A stretch of 64,000 nucleotides of DNA from Escherichia coli (lineage in GTDB: Bacteria; Pseudomonadota; Gammaproteobacteria; Enterobacterales; Enterobacteriaceae): NCBI RefSeq assembly GCF_048403405.1, contig NZ_CP183129.1; one strand, written 5' to 3'. The first letter of the stretch is position 1. The number at the start of each line of letters is the position of its first letter. Of this stretch, positions 1 to 3,929 are shown in pieces. The notes beneath the pieces are model-generated. The model had not been told where the DNA came from, searched no databases, and worked only from the letters and a program-made list of their open reading frames with translations. The position numbers were made by a program, and so were the translations under genes.

Positions 1-296
1 TTCACTGTATTGATGGCGGGTATGCGACGGAGTTATCCGCAGAGTTTGATACTCCGTGGGGGCCGCCGTCAGCAGCGGTTTTGTGTGCTCTGTCTGCGCG
101 TTTCCGCTGTCAGGTCCGTCATGTCTATGCCGAAGAAGGCTGTGGTTTCTGCGGATACAGCGAGTATGACCATGGCCGGTTAACCGACCATGAATCTGAT
201 GAGATTGAGTTCAGTGATGAAGAGAATGAGGACGGTTTCCAGGATGTGACGGGACCGGACTATATTCTTGATTCATTGCCACATTACGGAGGGTGA
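1..296 (+). CDS. 3' part of a hypothetical protein with a highly acidic C-terminus; the frame is open from the window edge (5'-truncated by the window)
   Basis: Frame 3 has no stop from nt 3 to TGA at 294-296; the six-frame track only reports it from an internal TTG at 81. No family recognised. Confidence 0.35.
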   Translation, partial: HCIDGGYATELSAEFDTPWGPPSAAVLCALSARFRCQVRHVYAEEGCGFCGYSEYDHGRLTDHESDEIEFSDEENEDGFQDVTGPDYILDSLPHYGG

Positions 297-326
297 GGTT
301 TCCGTACTGATTTAACTGACTGAAAA

Positions 327-357
327 CCCGGTAGTGATACCGGGTTTTTTTATTTTT
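327..357 (+). terminator. Rho-independent terminator (hairpin cccggta-gtga-taccggg followed by a T run)
   Basis: Perfect 7-bp stem with 4-nt loop, then TTTTTTTATTTTTTT; lies just downstream of the stop at 296. Confidence 0.7.
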
Positions 358-439
358 TTCGGAAAACTAATTTCGGCTTTTGTTTTATTCCCGCATTGTT
401 ATCGTGATGCCGTCATTGAATGAGATGGGGGAGAGTGTG

Positions 440-766
440 ATGAGATGTGAATTTGGGCAGGGTGTGAGGGAGTGGGCTCAGGATTTTTGGAATGAAATTC
501 TGTTTCCTTTTTTTGTCACAGCCGGACTTTTGTTGCCACTGATTCTGGTTGTGGGCGTTTTCCTGGTCTGGGATGAACAGCGCCAGGCTGAGTGGGGGCG
601 TTATTACCTGACGGAATGTCAGTTGGTGGAAAGAAACAGAAATGCGGGCTTCTGGTCAGGTCGGGAAAATATTCTGCAATGCGGAATGACCCGGGAGCAT
701 GTGAATGCGGACGCGTATGAAAAGGCCATCCGTGCCTGGCAGCAGAAACAGACAGAGACAGAATAA
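440..766 (+). CDS. Small hypothetical protein with one predicted transmembrane helix
   Basis: ORF 380-766; the ATG at 440 is preceded by GGGGGAGAG (Shine-Dalgarno-like). Hydrophobic stretch ILFPFFVTAGLLLPLILVVGVFLVW. Start choice is uncertain. Confidence 0.4.
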   Translation: MRCEFGQGVREWAQDFWNEILFPFFVTAGLLLPLILVVGVFLVWDEQRQAEWGRYYLTECQLVERNRNAGFWSGRENILQCGMTREHVNADAYEKAIRAWQQKQTETE

Positions 767-941: not shown

Positions 942-2534
942 ATGTTACCGTGGTTTCGTAAATCGCTTTCCCGGAAAGCGGAAGAGAAAACATTGCGTGT
1001 TTCCCCGGGAAACACGCAGGAAAGGCCATTATTTATCCGTGACAGTGACGGCTTTTATTTACCGCAGGCAGCTGACGTATTGCTGACCACACCGCAGCGG
1101 CAAAACTGGTTACAGCAAATCAGCCGGGTGGTAGCGTTACCGGATAACCAGTACCGGGCACTTTGCCTGTCTCCTTTGCAGACGCTGGCAGAACGACTTC
1201 AGTGTGTGCCGGCATCAAAAACCGGGAAATATGCCGGCGAAGGGGGATTGCTGGATTTAACGCTGAATACGACAGCCTGGTGTATGCGGATGTCCCAGAA
1301 AGAGATGCTGCCCCGCGGGCTTCCGTCGGAAGAGCAGAGCCGTCAGTTCAGCGCCTGGAATGTGTGTGTTTTTTATACCGGACTGTTTTACTGGTTACCG
1401 TTAACGGCACAGTTTGAGGGACAACTGAACAGCCTGTCGGCGTGGCAGCCGGGGATGAGTGCGCCCACCGTACCGTATCGTTTTCGCTTTCATGAGCCGG
1501 TGCCGGATATGACGCATTTTCGCCGGACGACGGGGGCCATGATGGCTTTCCGGCTATTACCGGAGAAGGTAATCCACTGGTTGTCGGGTACACCAAAGGC
1601 GCTTCAGGCGTTGTCTGACGTGGTGACCGAGCCGGTAAACGGTGATAATGATTTACAGCGTGTGCTGAATGAGGCTCTGGCTGCGTTCCCCGCCGGTGCA
1701 TTGCCGGCATTTTCTTCCGTTGTTTCTATGTCAGCGCCTGATGCTTCGTCTTCAGTGCTATCAGGGCAGCCGGAGAATGATATCGCGTCATTGGCGCCTG
1801 CTGAATTGGCGCAAAAGCCACAACCTGAAACTCCGTCTGTAACATCTGTATTGCCTCCGGAGTCTGTTACTTCAGAAAAAACAGAGAACGGAATTCACTG
1901 CGATATACCGCTAATGGTAGTTGCAGAAGCAGAAGGTGCGGTTGTCCATGGGGCACTTGATTCTGCTGATGAAAAAACTGTCTCAGATATGTCTCCTCCG
2001 TTATCTGAGGATATGAAATATGCACTTGAATTATCAGGTTTAATGCCGGAAATCTTATCTGATACTCAGACGGGCAATCGTGATGAGAAGGATGAACAGC
2101 GCGAAAACTGTCTGAGTATAAAAAATGAAGGAGAGGCTTTCTGGGCGTGGTTTAAGTCCGGATTATTGGGCGGAAAACTGGCAATAAATACGCCGGATGC
2201 GAAGGTTCACTGTGTCATGGAGTATTTGTTTTGCCAGAGTCCGGCTGTTTTTTATCAGTACATACAGGAGGCGGGTAAAAATCCGGATGATATCGGCCAT
2301 ATTATTTCTTCTTTTGAATCCCTTAAATTGCACCGGATTATTCGTCATGATACCCGACAAACAGGGCATTTCAGGGCTCGAATTTATGGTGAAAAACTGA
2401 ATCCGCTGAGTGATAACAAAACATTAATTACGTTATCCCATAAAAAAATCAATGGTTACATGATTAAAGGACGTCAGATTTTTGGCATGAATATGCCGGA
2501 GGAATCATTGTTTATTCGTATTGTCGGAAGTTAA
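942..2534 (+). CDS. Hypothetical ~530-aa protein: N-terminal domain, Ser/Pro/acidic linker, Cys/His-rich C-terminal domain; function unknown
   Basis: Long ORF (track 885-2534); the ATG at 942 has AAAGAGG upstream. Ends 15 nt before the recombinase start, suggesting co-transcription. Confidence 0.6.
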   Translation: MLPWFRKSLSRKAEEKTLRVSPGNTQERPLFIRDSDGFYLPQAADVLLTTPQRQNWLQQISRVVALPDNQYRALCLSPLQTLAERLQCVPASKTGKYAGEGGLLDLTLNTTAWCMRMSQKEMLPRGLPSEEQSRQFSAWNVCVFYTGLFYWLPLTAQFEGQLNSLSAWQPGMSAPTVPYRFRFHEPVPDMTHFRRTTGAMMAFRLLPEKVIHWLSGTPKALQALSDVVTEPVNGDNDLQRVLNEALAAFPAGALPAFSSVVSMSAPDASSSVLSGQPENDIASLAPAELAQKPQPETPSVTSVLPPESVTSEKTENGIHCDIPLMVVAEAEGAVVHGALDSADEKTVSDMSPPLSEDMKYALELSGLMPEILSDTQTGNRDEKDEQRENCLSIKNEGEAFWAWFKSGLLGGKLAINTPDAKVHCVMEYLFCQSPAVFYQYIQEAGKNPDDIGHIISSFESLKLHRIIRHDTRQTGHFRARIYGEKLNPLSDNKTLITLSHKKINGYMIKGRQIFGMNMPEESLFIRIVGS

Positions 2535-2549
2535 AAGCAGGAGGTGTTT

Positions 2550-3620
2550 ATGAAAGATAATCACAGTTCTGATGAACATCAGCAGAAAGTGGATGTATGG
2601 GAGCAAATGCTGAGTAATTACTTTTACAATAAAGTATTACGGCCGGATACGGAGAAAACATACCGTAAGATGGTACGTCTTTTTCTGCGTTATTGCGGAG
2701 TTTGTGAAAATGCGTTACCGCTACCGGATGAAGTGACACATGAGCATGTGCTGAGATGGCGAAGAAATGAGCTGAATATTCAGAAAGTCCGGGAACGGAC
2801 ATGGAACACAAAAACCAGGCATATGCAGTCTCTGTATAATTATTGGATCAAAAAAGGGATTGTTTCACTTAAAGAAAACCCGTTCTCAGAAACACAAATT
2901 GAACCGGGTGAAAAACAGAAAAAAGTCTATACACAATCACAACTGAGAACGATTTATCGTATTCTGGAACAATTTCAGCAACAGGAAAATATGCTGCCAC
3001 CTGATCAGGCTCACTTTCAGGCATGTGCGGTTTATCCCACTCGATTCTGGTTTGCTGTGCTGGAAACGCTGAGGCTGACGGCTATTCGTTTTAACCAGCT
3101 GATTAACCTGCATATTGGCGATCTGGATTTTGAGGAGTGTACGATCACATTGCGCAGTGAAAGCAGTAAAAATCACCGGGAATATCAGATTGCTTTTGTT
3201 CAGCCACTACGTTGTTTACTGGCGCCCTTGGTTGAGGAAATGCGTTGTCACGGGGCGGATAAAAACGATATTTTGTTTGATGTTCATCGTCTTTATCATA
3301 AACGACTATCCCGCTCTGAAACTCCACTCAGTCAGACGATACGTTCTTTTTTCCGTCGTTTATCAAAGGAATGTGGATTTCATGTCAGTCCCCATCGTTT
3401 CAGACATACACTGGCGACGACATTAATGAAACATCCTGAACGTAATATGCAATTGACGAAACAGATGTTAGGACACCGTAGTCTCTCTTCAACTATGGAA
3501 TATATTGCTCTGGATGCATACAGTACAGTCAGGATCTTGGAGAATGAGTTAGGTGAGTTTTTAACAATGGGATTAGGTGGTGAACTTACAAGGCTAGCAT
3601 CAAAAAGACAGAGGATGTGA
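2550..3620 (+). CDS. Tyrosine site-specific recombinase (phage-integrase family, XerC/D/Cre-sized, 356 aa)
   Basis: C-terminal catalytic signature HRFRHTLATTL ... LGHRSLSSTMEYI (H-x-x-R and H...Y nucleophile), upstream Arg-containing box (ETLRLTAIRF). AGGAGG lies 5 nt before the ATG at 2550. Adjacent to the tRNA-Phe 3' end. Confidence 0.85.
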   Translation: MKDNHSSDEHQQKVDVWEQMLSNYFYNKVLRPDTEKTYRKMVRLFLRYCGVCENALPLPDEVTHEHVLRWRRNELNIQKVRERTWNTKTRHMQSLYNYWIKKGIVSLKENPFSETQIEPGEKQKKVYTQSQLRTIYRILEQFQQQENMLPPDQAHFQACAVYPTRFWFAVLETLRLTAIRFNQLINLHIGDLDFEECTITLRSESSKNHREYQIAFVQPLRCLLAPLVEEMRCHGADKNDILFDVHRLYHKRLSRSETPLSQTIRSFFRRLSKECGFHVSPHRFRHTLATTLMKHPERNMQLTKQMLGHRSLSSTMEYIALDAYSTVRILENELGEFLTMGLGGELTRLASKRQRM

Positions 3621-3637
3621 TATAAATAAAAAATATT

Positions 3638-3671
3638 TACACAAAGTTGACTATTTTATCAACTTTGTGTA
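3638..3671. repeat. Perfect 13-bp inverted repeat with 8-bp asymmetric spacer (TACACAAAGTTGA-ctatttta-TCAACTTTGTGTA)
   Basis: Read directly; begins 18 nt after the recombinase stop. No T tract follows. Confidence 0.8.
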
Positions 3672-3853: not shown

Positions 3854-3929
3854 TGGTGCCCGGACTCGGAATCGAACCAAGGACACGGGGATTTTCAATC
3901 CCCTGCTCTACCGACTGAGCTATCCGGGC
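3854..3929 (-). tRNA. pheV: tRNA-Phe (GAA)
   Basis: Reverse complement matches the E. coli tRNA-Phe sequence over 76 nt including the CCA end; located next to yqgA as pheV is in K-12. Confidence 0.95.

What the first reader, a model, noticed from the sequence alone, without database searches (positions are those of the whole stretch)
380..766. Small single-TM protein at the head of the recombinase operon
A 108-128-aa ORF with one hydrophobic helix and a charged C-terminal tail is the first gene of the putative operon; it has a good RBS before the ATG at 440. Function unknown.
Basis: seen in the sequence. Interest (0 to 1): 0.3.

Follow-up and report, generated by a model that had tools for sequence, protein, structure and literature searches.

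The report
Unnamed small membrane protein of conjugative elements
The small ORF is a real, conserved gene for a membrane-anchored protein of unknown function, lying just upstream of the DNA-transfer (relaxase) and integrase genes of the mobile element ICEPm1, and it belongs to an unnamed family also found in the transfer operons of thousands of conjugative plasmids.

Summary
Window 440-766 (+) encodes a 108-aa protein with a good RBS and one transmembrane helix (I20-W44). The 380 TTG extension is not conserved.

The reading frame is kept in seven diverged copies from E. coli, Proteus and Morganella. Indels are in frame, and omega is 0.2-0.6 in the C-terminal half.

The "recombinase operon" is the attR end of ICEPm1 at tRNA-Phe (pheV). 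The 530-aa protein is the MOBH/PFGI-1-class relaxase TraI, and the recombinase is the ICE integrase.

The "charged tail" is a conserved ~50-aa domain with invariant G53, C60, C81 and Y93. AlphaFold models it as beta-beta-beta-alpha (pLDDT 87).

A profile search found about 30 remote clusters. tblastn finds the domain on about 2,555 PLSDB plasmids, 96% of them conjugative, mostly Klebsiella IncF. There it sits inside tra operons between traB, traV and traC. One member follows virD4 in a VirB-type locus. No member matches Pfam, NCBIfam, PHROGs, PADLOC or the PDB.

Within ICEPm elements the N-terminal/TM half is the most divergent coding segment of the shared core backbone.

Function is unproven. 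My best guess is a transfer-associated inner-membrane accessory or specificity factor; entry exclusion is the main rival. This is an ordinary-looking but undescribed, widespread family of modest interest.

The parts
1..296 (+). 3' end of the upstream DUF1281 (Api92-like) gene; not part of the unit, marks its upstream limit
   Evidence: PF18406 DUF1281_C, E 4.5e-11; annotated as a DUF1281 protein in identical E. coli loci
322..349 (+). Intrinsic-terminator-like hairpin (12-bp stem plus T-run) that closes the upstream transcription unit
   Evidence: perfect 11-nt inverted repeat; conserved in all 7 related loci, with one compensated stem change
350..426 (+). Nearly invariant non-coding leader or regulatory region upstream of the small gene; function unexplained
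   Evidence: Only scattered single-base differences among 7 elements whose traI dS averages 0.245. No sigma-70 match, no Rfam family, and RNA fold z = 0.01
427..435 (+). Ribosome-binding site GGGGGAGAG (GGAG 6 nt before the ATG)
   Evidence: a purine-rich AGGAG-like block is kept at the same position in all related loci
440..766 (+). CDS of the 108-aa bitopic membrane protein (stop codon 764-766)
   Evidence: Conserved frame and in-frame indels; 13 close clusters; about 30 remote clusters; synteny
440..583 (+). Hypervariable N-terminal segment plus TM helix (residues 1-48; TM is I20-W44, nt 497-571)
   Evidence: 55-78% nt identity against 90-100% in the flanks. dN 0.05-0.63 and dS 0.07-1.08, against a traI baseline of dN 0.032 and dS 0.245. 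Most divergent coding segment of the shared core backbone
596..751 (+). Conserved C-terminal domain (G53-Q104) with invariant G53, C60 (617-619), C81 (680-682) and Y93. Predicted strands 61-68, 75-81, 84-89 and helix 90-107
   Evidence: Alignment A4 of 30 sequences; AF2 pLDDT 86.9; hhalign 99.5% to the Klebsiella plasmid protein WP_004152596
767..941 (+). AT-rich (27% GC) conserved spacer between the small gene and traI; possible traI promoter or regulatory region
   Evidence: No + strand terminator. Only a weak promoter-like site, TTTATT-16-AATAAT at 855/877
942..2534 (+). traI, MOBH / PFGI-1-class ICE relaxase (530 aa)
   Evidence: PF07514 and PF07515; TIGR03760 at 184.5 bits, above the 161.4 cut-off
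2544..3620 (+). XerC/D-like tyrosine recombinase, the ICE integrase (358 aa)
   Evidence: PF00589, E 3.8e-20
3854..3929 (-). tRNA-Phe (pheV), the integration site; the ICE ends at the tRNA 3' end
   Evidence: yqgA and speC flank it. ICEPm1 integrates at tRNA-Phe with 52-bp repeats (PMC11278526, read)

Best explanation
**What it is**
- Window 440-766 is a genuine gene of ICEPm1.
- It encodes a 108-aa bitopic inner-membrane protein with three parts:
  - a short N-terminus;
  - one transmembrane anchor (I20-W44);
  - a conserved ~50-aa beta-beta-beta-alpha domain carrying two invariant cysteines.
- It belongs to an unnamed protein family that is carried almost only by conjugative elements, embedded in or next to their transfer genes.

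**How I think it works**
- It is made together with the transfer functions. Transcription would start from the conserved region after the terminator at 322-349 and may read through into traI-int.
- It sits in the inner membrane with the conserved domain facing the periplasm, where C60 and C81 would form a disulfide.
- It acts there as a non-structural accessory or specificity factor of mating, independent of T4SS type.
- The conserved domain would contact a common envelope or transfer component. The hypervariable N-terminus and TM segment would give element-specific contacts within the membrane.

**Shown**
- The gene is real.
- The family and its conserved residues.
- The association with conjugation.
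- The local hypervariability.

**Inferred**
- Topology.
- The disulfide.
- Co-transcription with traI-int.
- Any role in transfer.
For: **The gene is real**
- Frame, start codon and RBS are conserved in 7 diverged loci, with in-frame indels.
- C-terminal half omega is 0.2-0.6.

**Synteny**
- The order DUF1281 - small ORF - TraI_2 - integrase - tRNA-Phe holds at pheV or pheU in E. coli, Proteus and Morganella.
- 27 E. coli genomes carry traI-int and 27 carry the small ORF.

**The family**
- A profile search gave 34 clusters at E <= 1e-3.
- All 30 aligned members have 1-2 N-terminal TM helices plus the domain, with invariant G53, C60, C81 and Y93.
- AF2 model has pLDDT 86.9.

**Link to conjugation**
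- tblastn with P0021 finds the domain on 2,555 of 72,556 PLSDB plasmids. Of these, 2,454 are typed conjugative.
- The window protein itself hits 97 plasmids, with E down to 6e-8.
- Members lie co-oriented and tightly packed inside F-type tra operons between traB, traV and traC.
- One member follows virD4 in a VirB-type locus.

**Specificity hint**
- The N-terminal/TM half is the most divergent coding segment of the core backbone shared by the ICEPm-type elements compared.
- Its dN exceeds the neutral divergence of neighbouring traI.
- Its allele types are incongruent with the traI tree.
Against: - There is no experimental or homology-based functional anchor. No member matches Pfam, NCBIfam, PHROGs, PADLOC, PDB sequences or PDB/BFVD folds.
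- Topology is unresolved. K/R counts flanking the last TM are 37 upstream against 41 downstream across the family.
- A 175-nt spacer separates the gene from traI, so co-expression is unproven.
- The gene looks dispensable:
  - it is frameshifted in E. coli GON1437 and in a few metagenomic variants, P0011-P0013;
  - it stays intact in the ICE copy of CEC15, where the 50 kb fetched shows no T4SS genes.
- Occurrence with three different T4SS types argues against a structural T4SS role. It is equally compatible with cargo unrelated to transfer.
Confidence: 0.4

Rival explanations
1. It is an entry-exclusion (immunity-to-self) factor. The protein would sit in the inner membrane of ICE-bearing cells and block entry of a second copy of the same ICE type by recognising a donor T4SS membrane component. 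The hypervariable N-terminal/TM segment would define exclusion groups for ICEPm1, ICEPm2 and ICEPm3.
For: - It is a small inner-membrane protein on a conjugative element. To my knowledge no exclusion gene has been described for ICEPm1 or its T4SS class; I did not check this.
- The N-terminal/TM half forms discrete allele types and is the strongest divergence hotspot in the backbone. Its dN is up to 0.63, against traI dS of about 0.25.
- The alleles are shuffled relative to the traI tree.
- ICEPm1 and ICEPm3 co-reside in eight Proteus isolates (PMC11278526, read), as different exclusion groups would allow.
- From background knowledge, membrane-tethered periplasm-facing small proteins are the usual form of exclusion factors in VirB-type systems (TrbK, Eex). 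One family member follows virD4 in such a locus.
Against: - E. coli strain 2547 carries two ICEPm1 copies, at pheU and pheV, with identical alleles of this gene. This is weak evidence, because intracellular re-integration is possible.
- F-type plasmids already use TraS and TraT for exclusion (background knowledge; I did not check that these Klebsiella plasmids carry them). They nevertheless hold two paralogues of this family between traV and traC.
- The ectodomain is conserved across three T4SS types. Known exclusion proteins are specific to one T4SS type.
- There is no similarity to any known exclusion family.
Confidence: 0.22
2. It is cargo that protects the host envelope against other invaders. 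In this reading it acts like a superinfection-exclusion protein and blocks entry of phage DNA, for example from pilus-specific phages, or of foreign DNA. It would be co-expressed with the pilus or T4SS, when the cell is most exposed.
For: - The architecture (TM anchor plus small extracytoplasmic domain) matches phage Sie/Sp-type proteins (background knowledge).
- Tandem paralogues and local hypervariability look like an arms race.
- Independence of T4SS type fits a target outside the T4SS.
Against: - No PHROGs or PADLOC match for any of the 30 members.
- No viral structural match.
- The family is found almost only on conjugative elements and inside tra operons, not in defence islands.
Confidence: 0.1
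3. It is a relaxosome accessory protein, like MobI of SXT or IncC, or a membrane tether for TraI, and is needed for oriT processing by the adjacent MOBH relaxase.
For: - It lies immediately upstream of traI and is strictly syntenic with it in ICEPm elements.
- Conserved non-coding DNA on both sides could hold oriT.
Against: - Remote family members sit among mating-pair-formation genes, or next to unrelated genes, not next to relaxases.
- The protein has a TM helix and no DNA-binding motif.
- The conserved cysteine pair suggests a periplasmic domain (inference).
Confidence: 0.05
4. It is a chance ORF or pseudogene over functional non-coding DNA such as a promoter or oriT, and not a protein-coding gene.
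For: - ORFs of this size are common by chance.
- PGAP start calls are inconsistent.
- Some copies are frameshifted.
Against: - In-frame indels, omega below 1 in the C-terminal half, a conserved start and RBS.
- Protein-level homologues at 21-29% identity with invariant residues, and E-values down to 1e-21.
- A confident AF2 fold once the deeper alignment was used.
Confidence: 0.02

Closest known systems
ICEPm1 / ICEPm2 / ICEPm3 of Proteus mirabilis (SPI-7 / PFGI-1 / ICEHin1056-class ICEs at tRNA-Phe)
   Same: - The surrounding element is ICEPm1.
- It has the same gene order, with proteins carrying Proteus accession numbers.
- It has a PFGI-1-class relaxase.
- It is integrated at pheV.
- The M19-type relative carries the CDI and phenazine cargo described for ICEPm2 (PMC11278526, read).
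   Different: Nothing differs at the element level. This small gene is only annotated as a hypothetical protein, and I found no paper that mentions it.
Hypothetical proteins WP_004152596 (96 aa) and WP_004152594 (134 aa) between traV and traC of Klebsiella IncFII(K)/IncFIB(K) plasmids
   Same: - Same architecture, TM plus C-terminal domain.
- Same motif, C-x-L-x-E-x-N...G-F...N-x-L-x-C.
- hhalign probability is 99.5% for WP_004152596.
   Different: - Only about 25-35% identity.
- They sit inside an F-type mating-pair-formation operon rather than upstream of a MOBH relaxase.
- They occur as two paralogues.
- WP_004152594 has two TM helices.
Entry-exclusion proteins (SXT/R391 Eex, F TraS, RP4 TrbK)
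   Same: They are small inner-membrane or membrane-tethered proteins on conjugative elements, with allelic variation that defines specificity groups.
   Different: - No sequence or profile similarity.
- The ectodomain is conserved across T4SS types.
- Identical alleles co-reside in one genome.
- No functional test exists.
Small accessory inner-membrane proteins of the F tra operon (TraP, TraQ, TrbD, TrbG, TrbI)
   Same: - Same genomic slot in F-type plasmids, between traB, traV and traC.
- Small bitopic proteins of the pilus-assembly operon, several of them non-essential (background knowledge).
   Different: - No Pfam or NCBIfam match to any of those families.
- The Klebsiella plasmids encode an annotated TraP in addition.
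- The family also occurs with non-F T4SS types.

Membership tests
The unnamed family defined here (TM anchor plus G-x6-C-x20-C...Y domain) | 1-2 N-terminal TM helices followed by a ~50-aa domain with invariant Gly, two Cys 21 positions apart, and Tyr | tested here: met
   G53, C60, C81 and Y93 are invariant in 30 sequences. hmmsearch E-values 1e-21 to 1e-4. tblastn E 6e-8 to plasmid members.
The unnamed family defined here | Encoded on conjugative elements, within or next to transfer genes | tested here: met
   Here it lies upstream of traI of ICEPm1. 96% of 2,555 plasmid hits are conjugative. Gene contexts.
ICEPm1-type ICE (the surrounding element) | PFGI-1-class MOBH relaxase plus tyrosine integrase next to tRNA-Phe, with the ICEPm1 backbone | tested here: met
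   TIGR03760 at 184.5 bits against a cut-off of 161.4. tRNA-Phe. Full T4SS, nrp and taaP backbone in the identical E. coli ICE. 100% match to E. coli GN02323.
Entry-exclusion proteins | Homology to a known Eex, TraS or TrbK family | tested here: not met
   No Pfam or NCBIfam hit for any of the 30 members.
Entry-exclusion proteins | Variable specificity region that defines groups among otherwise similar elements | tested here: inconclusive
   The hypervariable N-terminal/TM half has discrete alleles. No co-varying donor partner could be identified from three complete ICEs.
Entry-exclusion proteins | Elements with the same allele do not co-reside | tested here: not met
   Strain 2547 has ICEPm1 at both pheU and pheV with identical alleles. 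The weight is weak, because intracellular duplication is possible.
Entry-exclusion proteins | Expression in the recipient lowers acquisition of the cognate element | not testable with these tools
   This needs mating assays.
Type IV pilin-like proteins | Class III signal peptide (Gly at -1, Glu at +5, then a hydrophobic stretch) and the pilin fold | tested here: not met
Named F-type accessory proteins (TraP, TraQ, TrbI and others) | Match to the curated Pfam or NCBIfam model | tested here: not met
   No hits. An annotated TraP is present separately in the same plasmids.
Holins | Small TM protein with a charged C-terminus next to an endolysin, in a phage family | tested here: not met
   No PHROGs hit. 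No adjacent lysin gene. The C-terminus is a conserved folded domain.

The most novel reading that the evidence does not exclude
The family is the specificity subunit of an unrecognised exclusion or self-recognition system. The system would be shared by ICEPm-type ICEs and by the IncFII(K)/IncFIB(K) resistance plasmids of Klebsiella. The conserved disulfide-stapled ectodomain would be the effector.
Probability: 0.18. Interest if true: 0.6.

Novelty: new member of a known kind. Interest (0 to 1): 0.35.

Why it matters
The gene itself is a routine hypothetical protein of a known ICE. The family behind it is widespread but has no entry in Pfam, NCBIfam, PHROGs or PADLOC.

- About 3.5% of PLSDB plasmids carry it, mostly conjugative Klebsiella IncF plasmids, often as two copies inside the tra operon.
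- It also occurs in ICEPm1, ICEPm2 and ICEPm3.
- No function, structure or literature was found.

A transfer-linked membrane protein with a hypervariable specificity-like segment is a cheap target for knock-out and exclusion assays. If it controls which elements can enter or leave a cell, it would bear on the spread of resistance plasmids.

A practical point also follows. The PGAP start call in some genomes (TTG at window 530) truncates the transmembrane helix.

Tried and rejected
**Searches that found nothing**
- Curated-family searches on the window protein and on all 30 family members found nothing: Pfam, NCBIfam, PHROGs and PADLOC.
- A PDB sequence profile search gave only noise.
- The first AF2 run, on 9 close sequences, gave a poor all-helix model with pLDDT 64. 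I replaced it with the 30-sequence run, pLDDT 87.
- The AFDB libraries were unavailable.
- A literature search for the protein accessions and for the traV-traC ORFs of pKpQIL found nothing relevant.
- The Flannery 2011 ICEPm1 paper is not held.

**Tests that gave no clear answer**
- A positive-inside charge count for topology was inconclusive.
- A third Klebsiella paralogue, WP_004152597 (annotated "lipase chaperone"), is not supported: hhalign probability 5%.
- I looked for a T4SS gene that co-varies with the hypervariable half. Only three complete ICEs were usable.
  - In CEC15 the 50 kb fetched shows no T4SS genes.
  - DUF2913 and the TIGR03745 membrane protein are also unusually divergent, but no conclusion is possible.
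- The invariant upstream region has no Rfam family, no special RNA fold and no sigma-70 promoter.

**Readings considered and rejected**
- Holin, type IV pilin and MobI-like relaxosome factor (see the membership tests).

Full report
**1. The observation**

The ORF 380-766 (+) exists. An ORF of about 110-130 codons is not remarkable here, because one search lists many spurious ORFs of similar size. The case rests on conservation.

Seven diverged copies were compared: the window, E. coli M19, two other E. coli loci, and Morganella, Proteus and metagenomic loci. Four results stand out.
- ATG 440 and the purine-rich RBS before it are conserved. A 1-bp indel just upstream breaks the longer TTG-380 frame.
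- Indels inside the gene are in frame, at 9 bp and 12 bp.
- The C-terminal half has dN 0.02-0.10 and dS 0.03-0.27.
- PGAP starts the identical sequence at TTG 530 (78 aa) in strain 005008, which would bisect the hydrophobic helix. In M19 it uses the ATG equivalent to 440.

The product is therefore 108 aa, with one TM helix at I20-W44.

**2. The setting**

The 530-aa neighbour is a TraI_2/MOBH relaxase. It scores above the curated cut-off of TIGR03760, "ICE relaxase, PFGI-1 class". The next gene is a XerC/D-like tyrosine recombinase. tRNA-Phe lies at 3854-3929, followed by yqgA and speC, so this is the pheV locus.

The identical region in E. coli 005008 continues into a full ICEPm1 backbone. 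That backbone carries the TIGR037xx T4SS genes, TraD, taaP and the nrp NRPS/PKS cargo, with proteins bearing Proteus accession numbers. The window matches E. coli GN02323 at 100%.

The M19 relative carries the CDI and phenazine cargo described for ICEPm2 (PMC11278526, read).

The "recombinase operon" is therefore the relaxase-integrase module at the attR end of ICEPm1.
- A conserved terminator at 322-349 closes the upstream DUF1281 gene.
- A 175-nt spacer of 27% GC separates the small gene from traI, with no predicted terminator and only a weak promoter-like site.
- Co-transcription is possible but not shown.

**3. Conservation and synteny**

Close homologues form only 13 clusters, from Proteus, Morganella and E. 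coli, all labelled hypothetical. In every locus fetched the order is DUF1281 - small ORF - TraI_2, followed by the integrase and tRNA-Phe wherever the contig reaches that far (L008 ends in an IS21 gene after traI). Insertions are at pheV or pheU.

Among 5,426 complete E. coli genomes, 27 carry traI-int and 27 carry the small ORF.

The gene is occasionally broken. It is frameshifted in GON1437 and in three metagenomic variants. It stays intact in CEC15, where the 50 kb fetched shows no T4SS genes.

**4. A wider family**

A profile of nine close sequences, searched against 1.84 billion representatives, found 34 clusters at E <= 1e-3. The aligned members share two features.
- They have one or two N-terminal TM helices that cannot be aligned with each other.
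- They have a C-terminal domain of about 50 aa, with invariant G53, C60, C81 and Y93 and nearly invariant L62, E64, N66, G70, N77 and V88.

With this alignment AlphaFold2 gives a confident model (pLDDT 86.9). It has a helix at 5-59, strands at 61-68, 75-81 and 84-89, and a helix at 90-107. The two cysteines sit at the base of the first hairpin. I infer a periplasmic disulfide. Charge bias does not settle the topology.

No member matches Pfam, NCBIfam, PHROGs or PADLOC. Neither the PDB by sequence nor the PDB and BFVD by fold gives a specific hit.

**5. Where the family lives**

| Context | Evidence |
|---|---|
| 2,555 of 72,556 PLSDB plasmids by tblastn with a remote member; 2,454 typed conjugative; 2,338 Klebsiella | |
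| 97 plasmids hit directly by the window protein, E down to 6e-8 | |
| Klebsiella IncFII(K)/IncFIB(K) plasmids: two paralogues, WP_004152596 (hhalign 99.5%) and WP_004152594, in a block of small ORFs between traV and traC, co-oriented with gaps of a few bases | |
| Providencia and Morganella plasmids and metagenomic F-type loci: between traB and traV or traC | |
| A VirB-type locus: after virD4, near a DUF459 hydrolase and topoisomerase III | |
| Overlapping the start of a tyrosine integrase gene; another before a UvrD-like helicase | |

The family therefore travels with conjugative elements of three T4SS types: F-type, the ICE type of ICEPm1, and VirB-type. That argues for a function linked to transfer but independent of T4SS type.

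**6. A local hypervariable segment**

Along the backbone compared between the ICEPm-type elements, identity is mostly 90-100%. Window 440-585, which covers the N-terminus and the TM helix, falls to 55-78%.

| Segment | dN | dS |
|---|---|---|
| Small ORF, N-terminal half | 0.05-0.63 | 0.07-1.08 |
| Small ORF, C-terminal half | 0.02-0.10 | 0.03-0.27 |
| traI, first 240 codons (mean) | 0.032 | 0.245 |

Non-synonymous divergence in the N-terminal half exceeds the neutral divergence of the neighbouring gene.

The segment forms discrete types.
- Type A: the window and L012.
- Type B: M19.
- Type C: L003, L006 and L010, with a 4-residue insertion.
- Type D: L008.

The types do not follow the traI tree. 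L006 groups with M19 and L008 in traI but carries type C. Recombination of old alleles is therefore likely.

Across three complete ICEs this is the most divergent coding segment of the shared core backbone, at 79.9% and 66.7% identity. DUF2913 and the TIGR03745 membrane protein come next.

In contrast, the 77 nt upstream (350-426) are almost invariant. They have no Rfam match, no special fold and no sigma-70 promoter. This remains unexplained.

**7. Mechanism**

Shown:
- a real membrane-anchored protein;
- a conserved two-cysteine domain;
- an almost exclusive association with conjugative transfer regions;
- a hypervariable anchor segment.

Inferred:
- a periplasmic, disulfide-stapled domain;
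- expression together with the transfer genes.

My best reading (about 0.4) is an inner-membrane accessory or specificity factor of mating. It would not be part of the core T4SS.

The main rival (about 0.2) is entry exclusion, with the hypervariable segment defining exclusion groups. The allele pattern and the reported co-residence of ICEPm1 with ICEPm3 support it (PMC11278526, read). Three observations count against it.
- Strain 2547 holds two ICEPm1 copies with identical alleles. This is weak evidence, because intracellular re-integration is possible.
- F-type plasmids already use TraS and TraT for exclusion (background knowledge, not checked in these plasmids).
- The ectodomain is conserved across T4SS types.

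A superinfection-exclusion or anti-phage role gets about 0.1. A relaxosome accessory role is unlikely (0.05). A non-coding or chance ORF is excluded.

**8. Comparison and novelty**

The element is ICEPm1, which is already known. The gene is present in databases only as a hypothetical protein. I found no paper that mentions it or its plasmid relatives.

It does not belong to any named exclusion, pilin, holin or F-accessory family; see the membership tests. It is best described as a member of an undescribed family within a familiar class: small accessory membrane proteins of conjugative elements.

**9. Verdict**

Interest is modest (0.35). The gene itself is ordinary. The family's spread in clinically important Klebsiella plasmids and its hypervariable segment make it a reasonable target for a simple genetic test.

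Noticed in passing
window 350-426: This 77-nt non-coding stretch lies between the terminator and the RBS. It is almost invariant among 7 elements whose neighbouring genes have dS of about 0.25. It has no sigma-70 promoter, no Rfam family and no special RNA fold. It is a candidate regulator-dependent promoter, operator or oriT component.
   Followed up: partly
window 440-585: The 5' half of the gene is the most divergent coding segment of the core backbone shared by the ICEPm-type elements compared. It forms discrete allele types that are incongruent with the traI tree, which suggests recombination of old alleles or diversifying selection.
   Followed up: yes
window 530-766 (PGAP CDS in NZ_CP058661.1) and window 885 vs 942: RefSeq start calls look wrong or inconsistent. 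The small gene is started at TTG 530 (78 aa, inside the TM helix) in some genomes. traI is called at 549 aa from ATG 885 in 005008 but from the conserved ATG 942 equivalent (530 aa) in M19.
   Followed up: partly
L012 (Proteus mirabilis), equivalent to window ~1660-3620: This element has the type A small gene and a 90%-identical traI relaxase domain. Its traI C-terminal half and integrase are a different module at only 28-70% identity. The breakpoint falls near the end of the TraI_2 N-terminal domain. E. coli GON1437, MSI001 and 774 show the same pattern, with only the first 746 nt of traI matching.
   Followed up: partly
L030 and NZ_CP072980.1 (E. coli strain 2547): One genome holds two ICEPm1 copies, at pheU and pheV. 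Their small-gene alleles are identical. The pheV copy has several T4SS genes annotated as frameshifted.
   Followed up: partly
L019 6523-8953 and L020 5468-7898 (Klebsiella IncF plasmids): A block of six small, mostly membrane-protein ORFs of unknown function lies between traV and traC. Two of them belong to this family. WP_004152597, annotated "lipase chaperone", has a similar Cys spacing, but homology is not supported.
   Followed up: partly
L025 29070-29678, L024 32813-33421, L032 49133-49732: A DUF2913 gene sits in opposite orientation inside the ICE T4SS cluster. It is the second most divergent backbone gene (83.6% and 72.9% identity), with a variable C-terminal half. Its divergence ranks the two ICE comparisons in the same order as the small gene's N-terminal half.
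   Followed up: partly
L031 (E. coli CEC15) and L032 3715-4371 (E. coli GON1437): In CEC15 the 50 kb fetched shows only CDI cargo and the end module bounded by IS66 copies, with no T4SS genes, yet the small gene is intact. GON1437 has a full T4SS but a frameshift near the start of the small gene, and no CDS is annotated there.
   Followed up: partly
window 3638-3671: A 14-bp-stem inverted repeat (TACACAAAGTTGA...TCAACTTTGTGTA) lies between the integrase stop codon and tRNA-Phe. The scan flagged it as terminator-like on the minus strand. It could be an integrase arm-type site or a terminator.
   Followed up: no
L001 3628-5997 (upstream of the window) and L029 8700-9245: ArdC, a CbtA-family toxin with no annotated adjacent antitoxin, and DUF1281 precede the small gene. 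An SGNH/DUF459 hydrolase lies about 6 kb upstream in ICEPm1. A DUF459 gene also neighbours the family member in the VirB-type locus L029.
   Followed up: no
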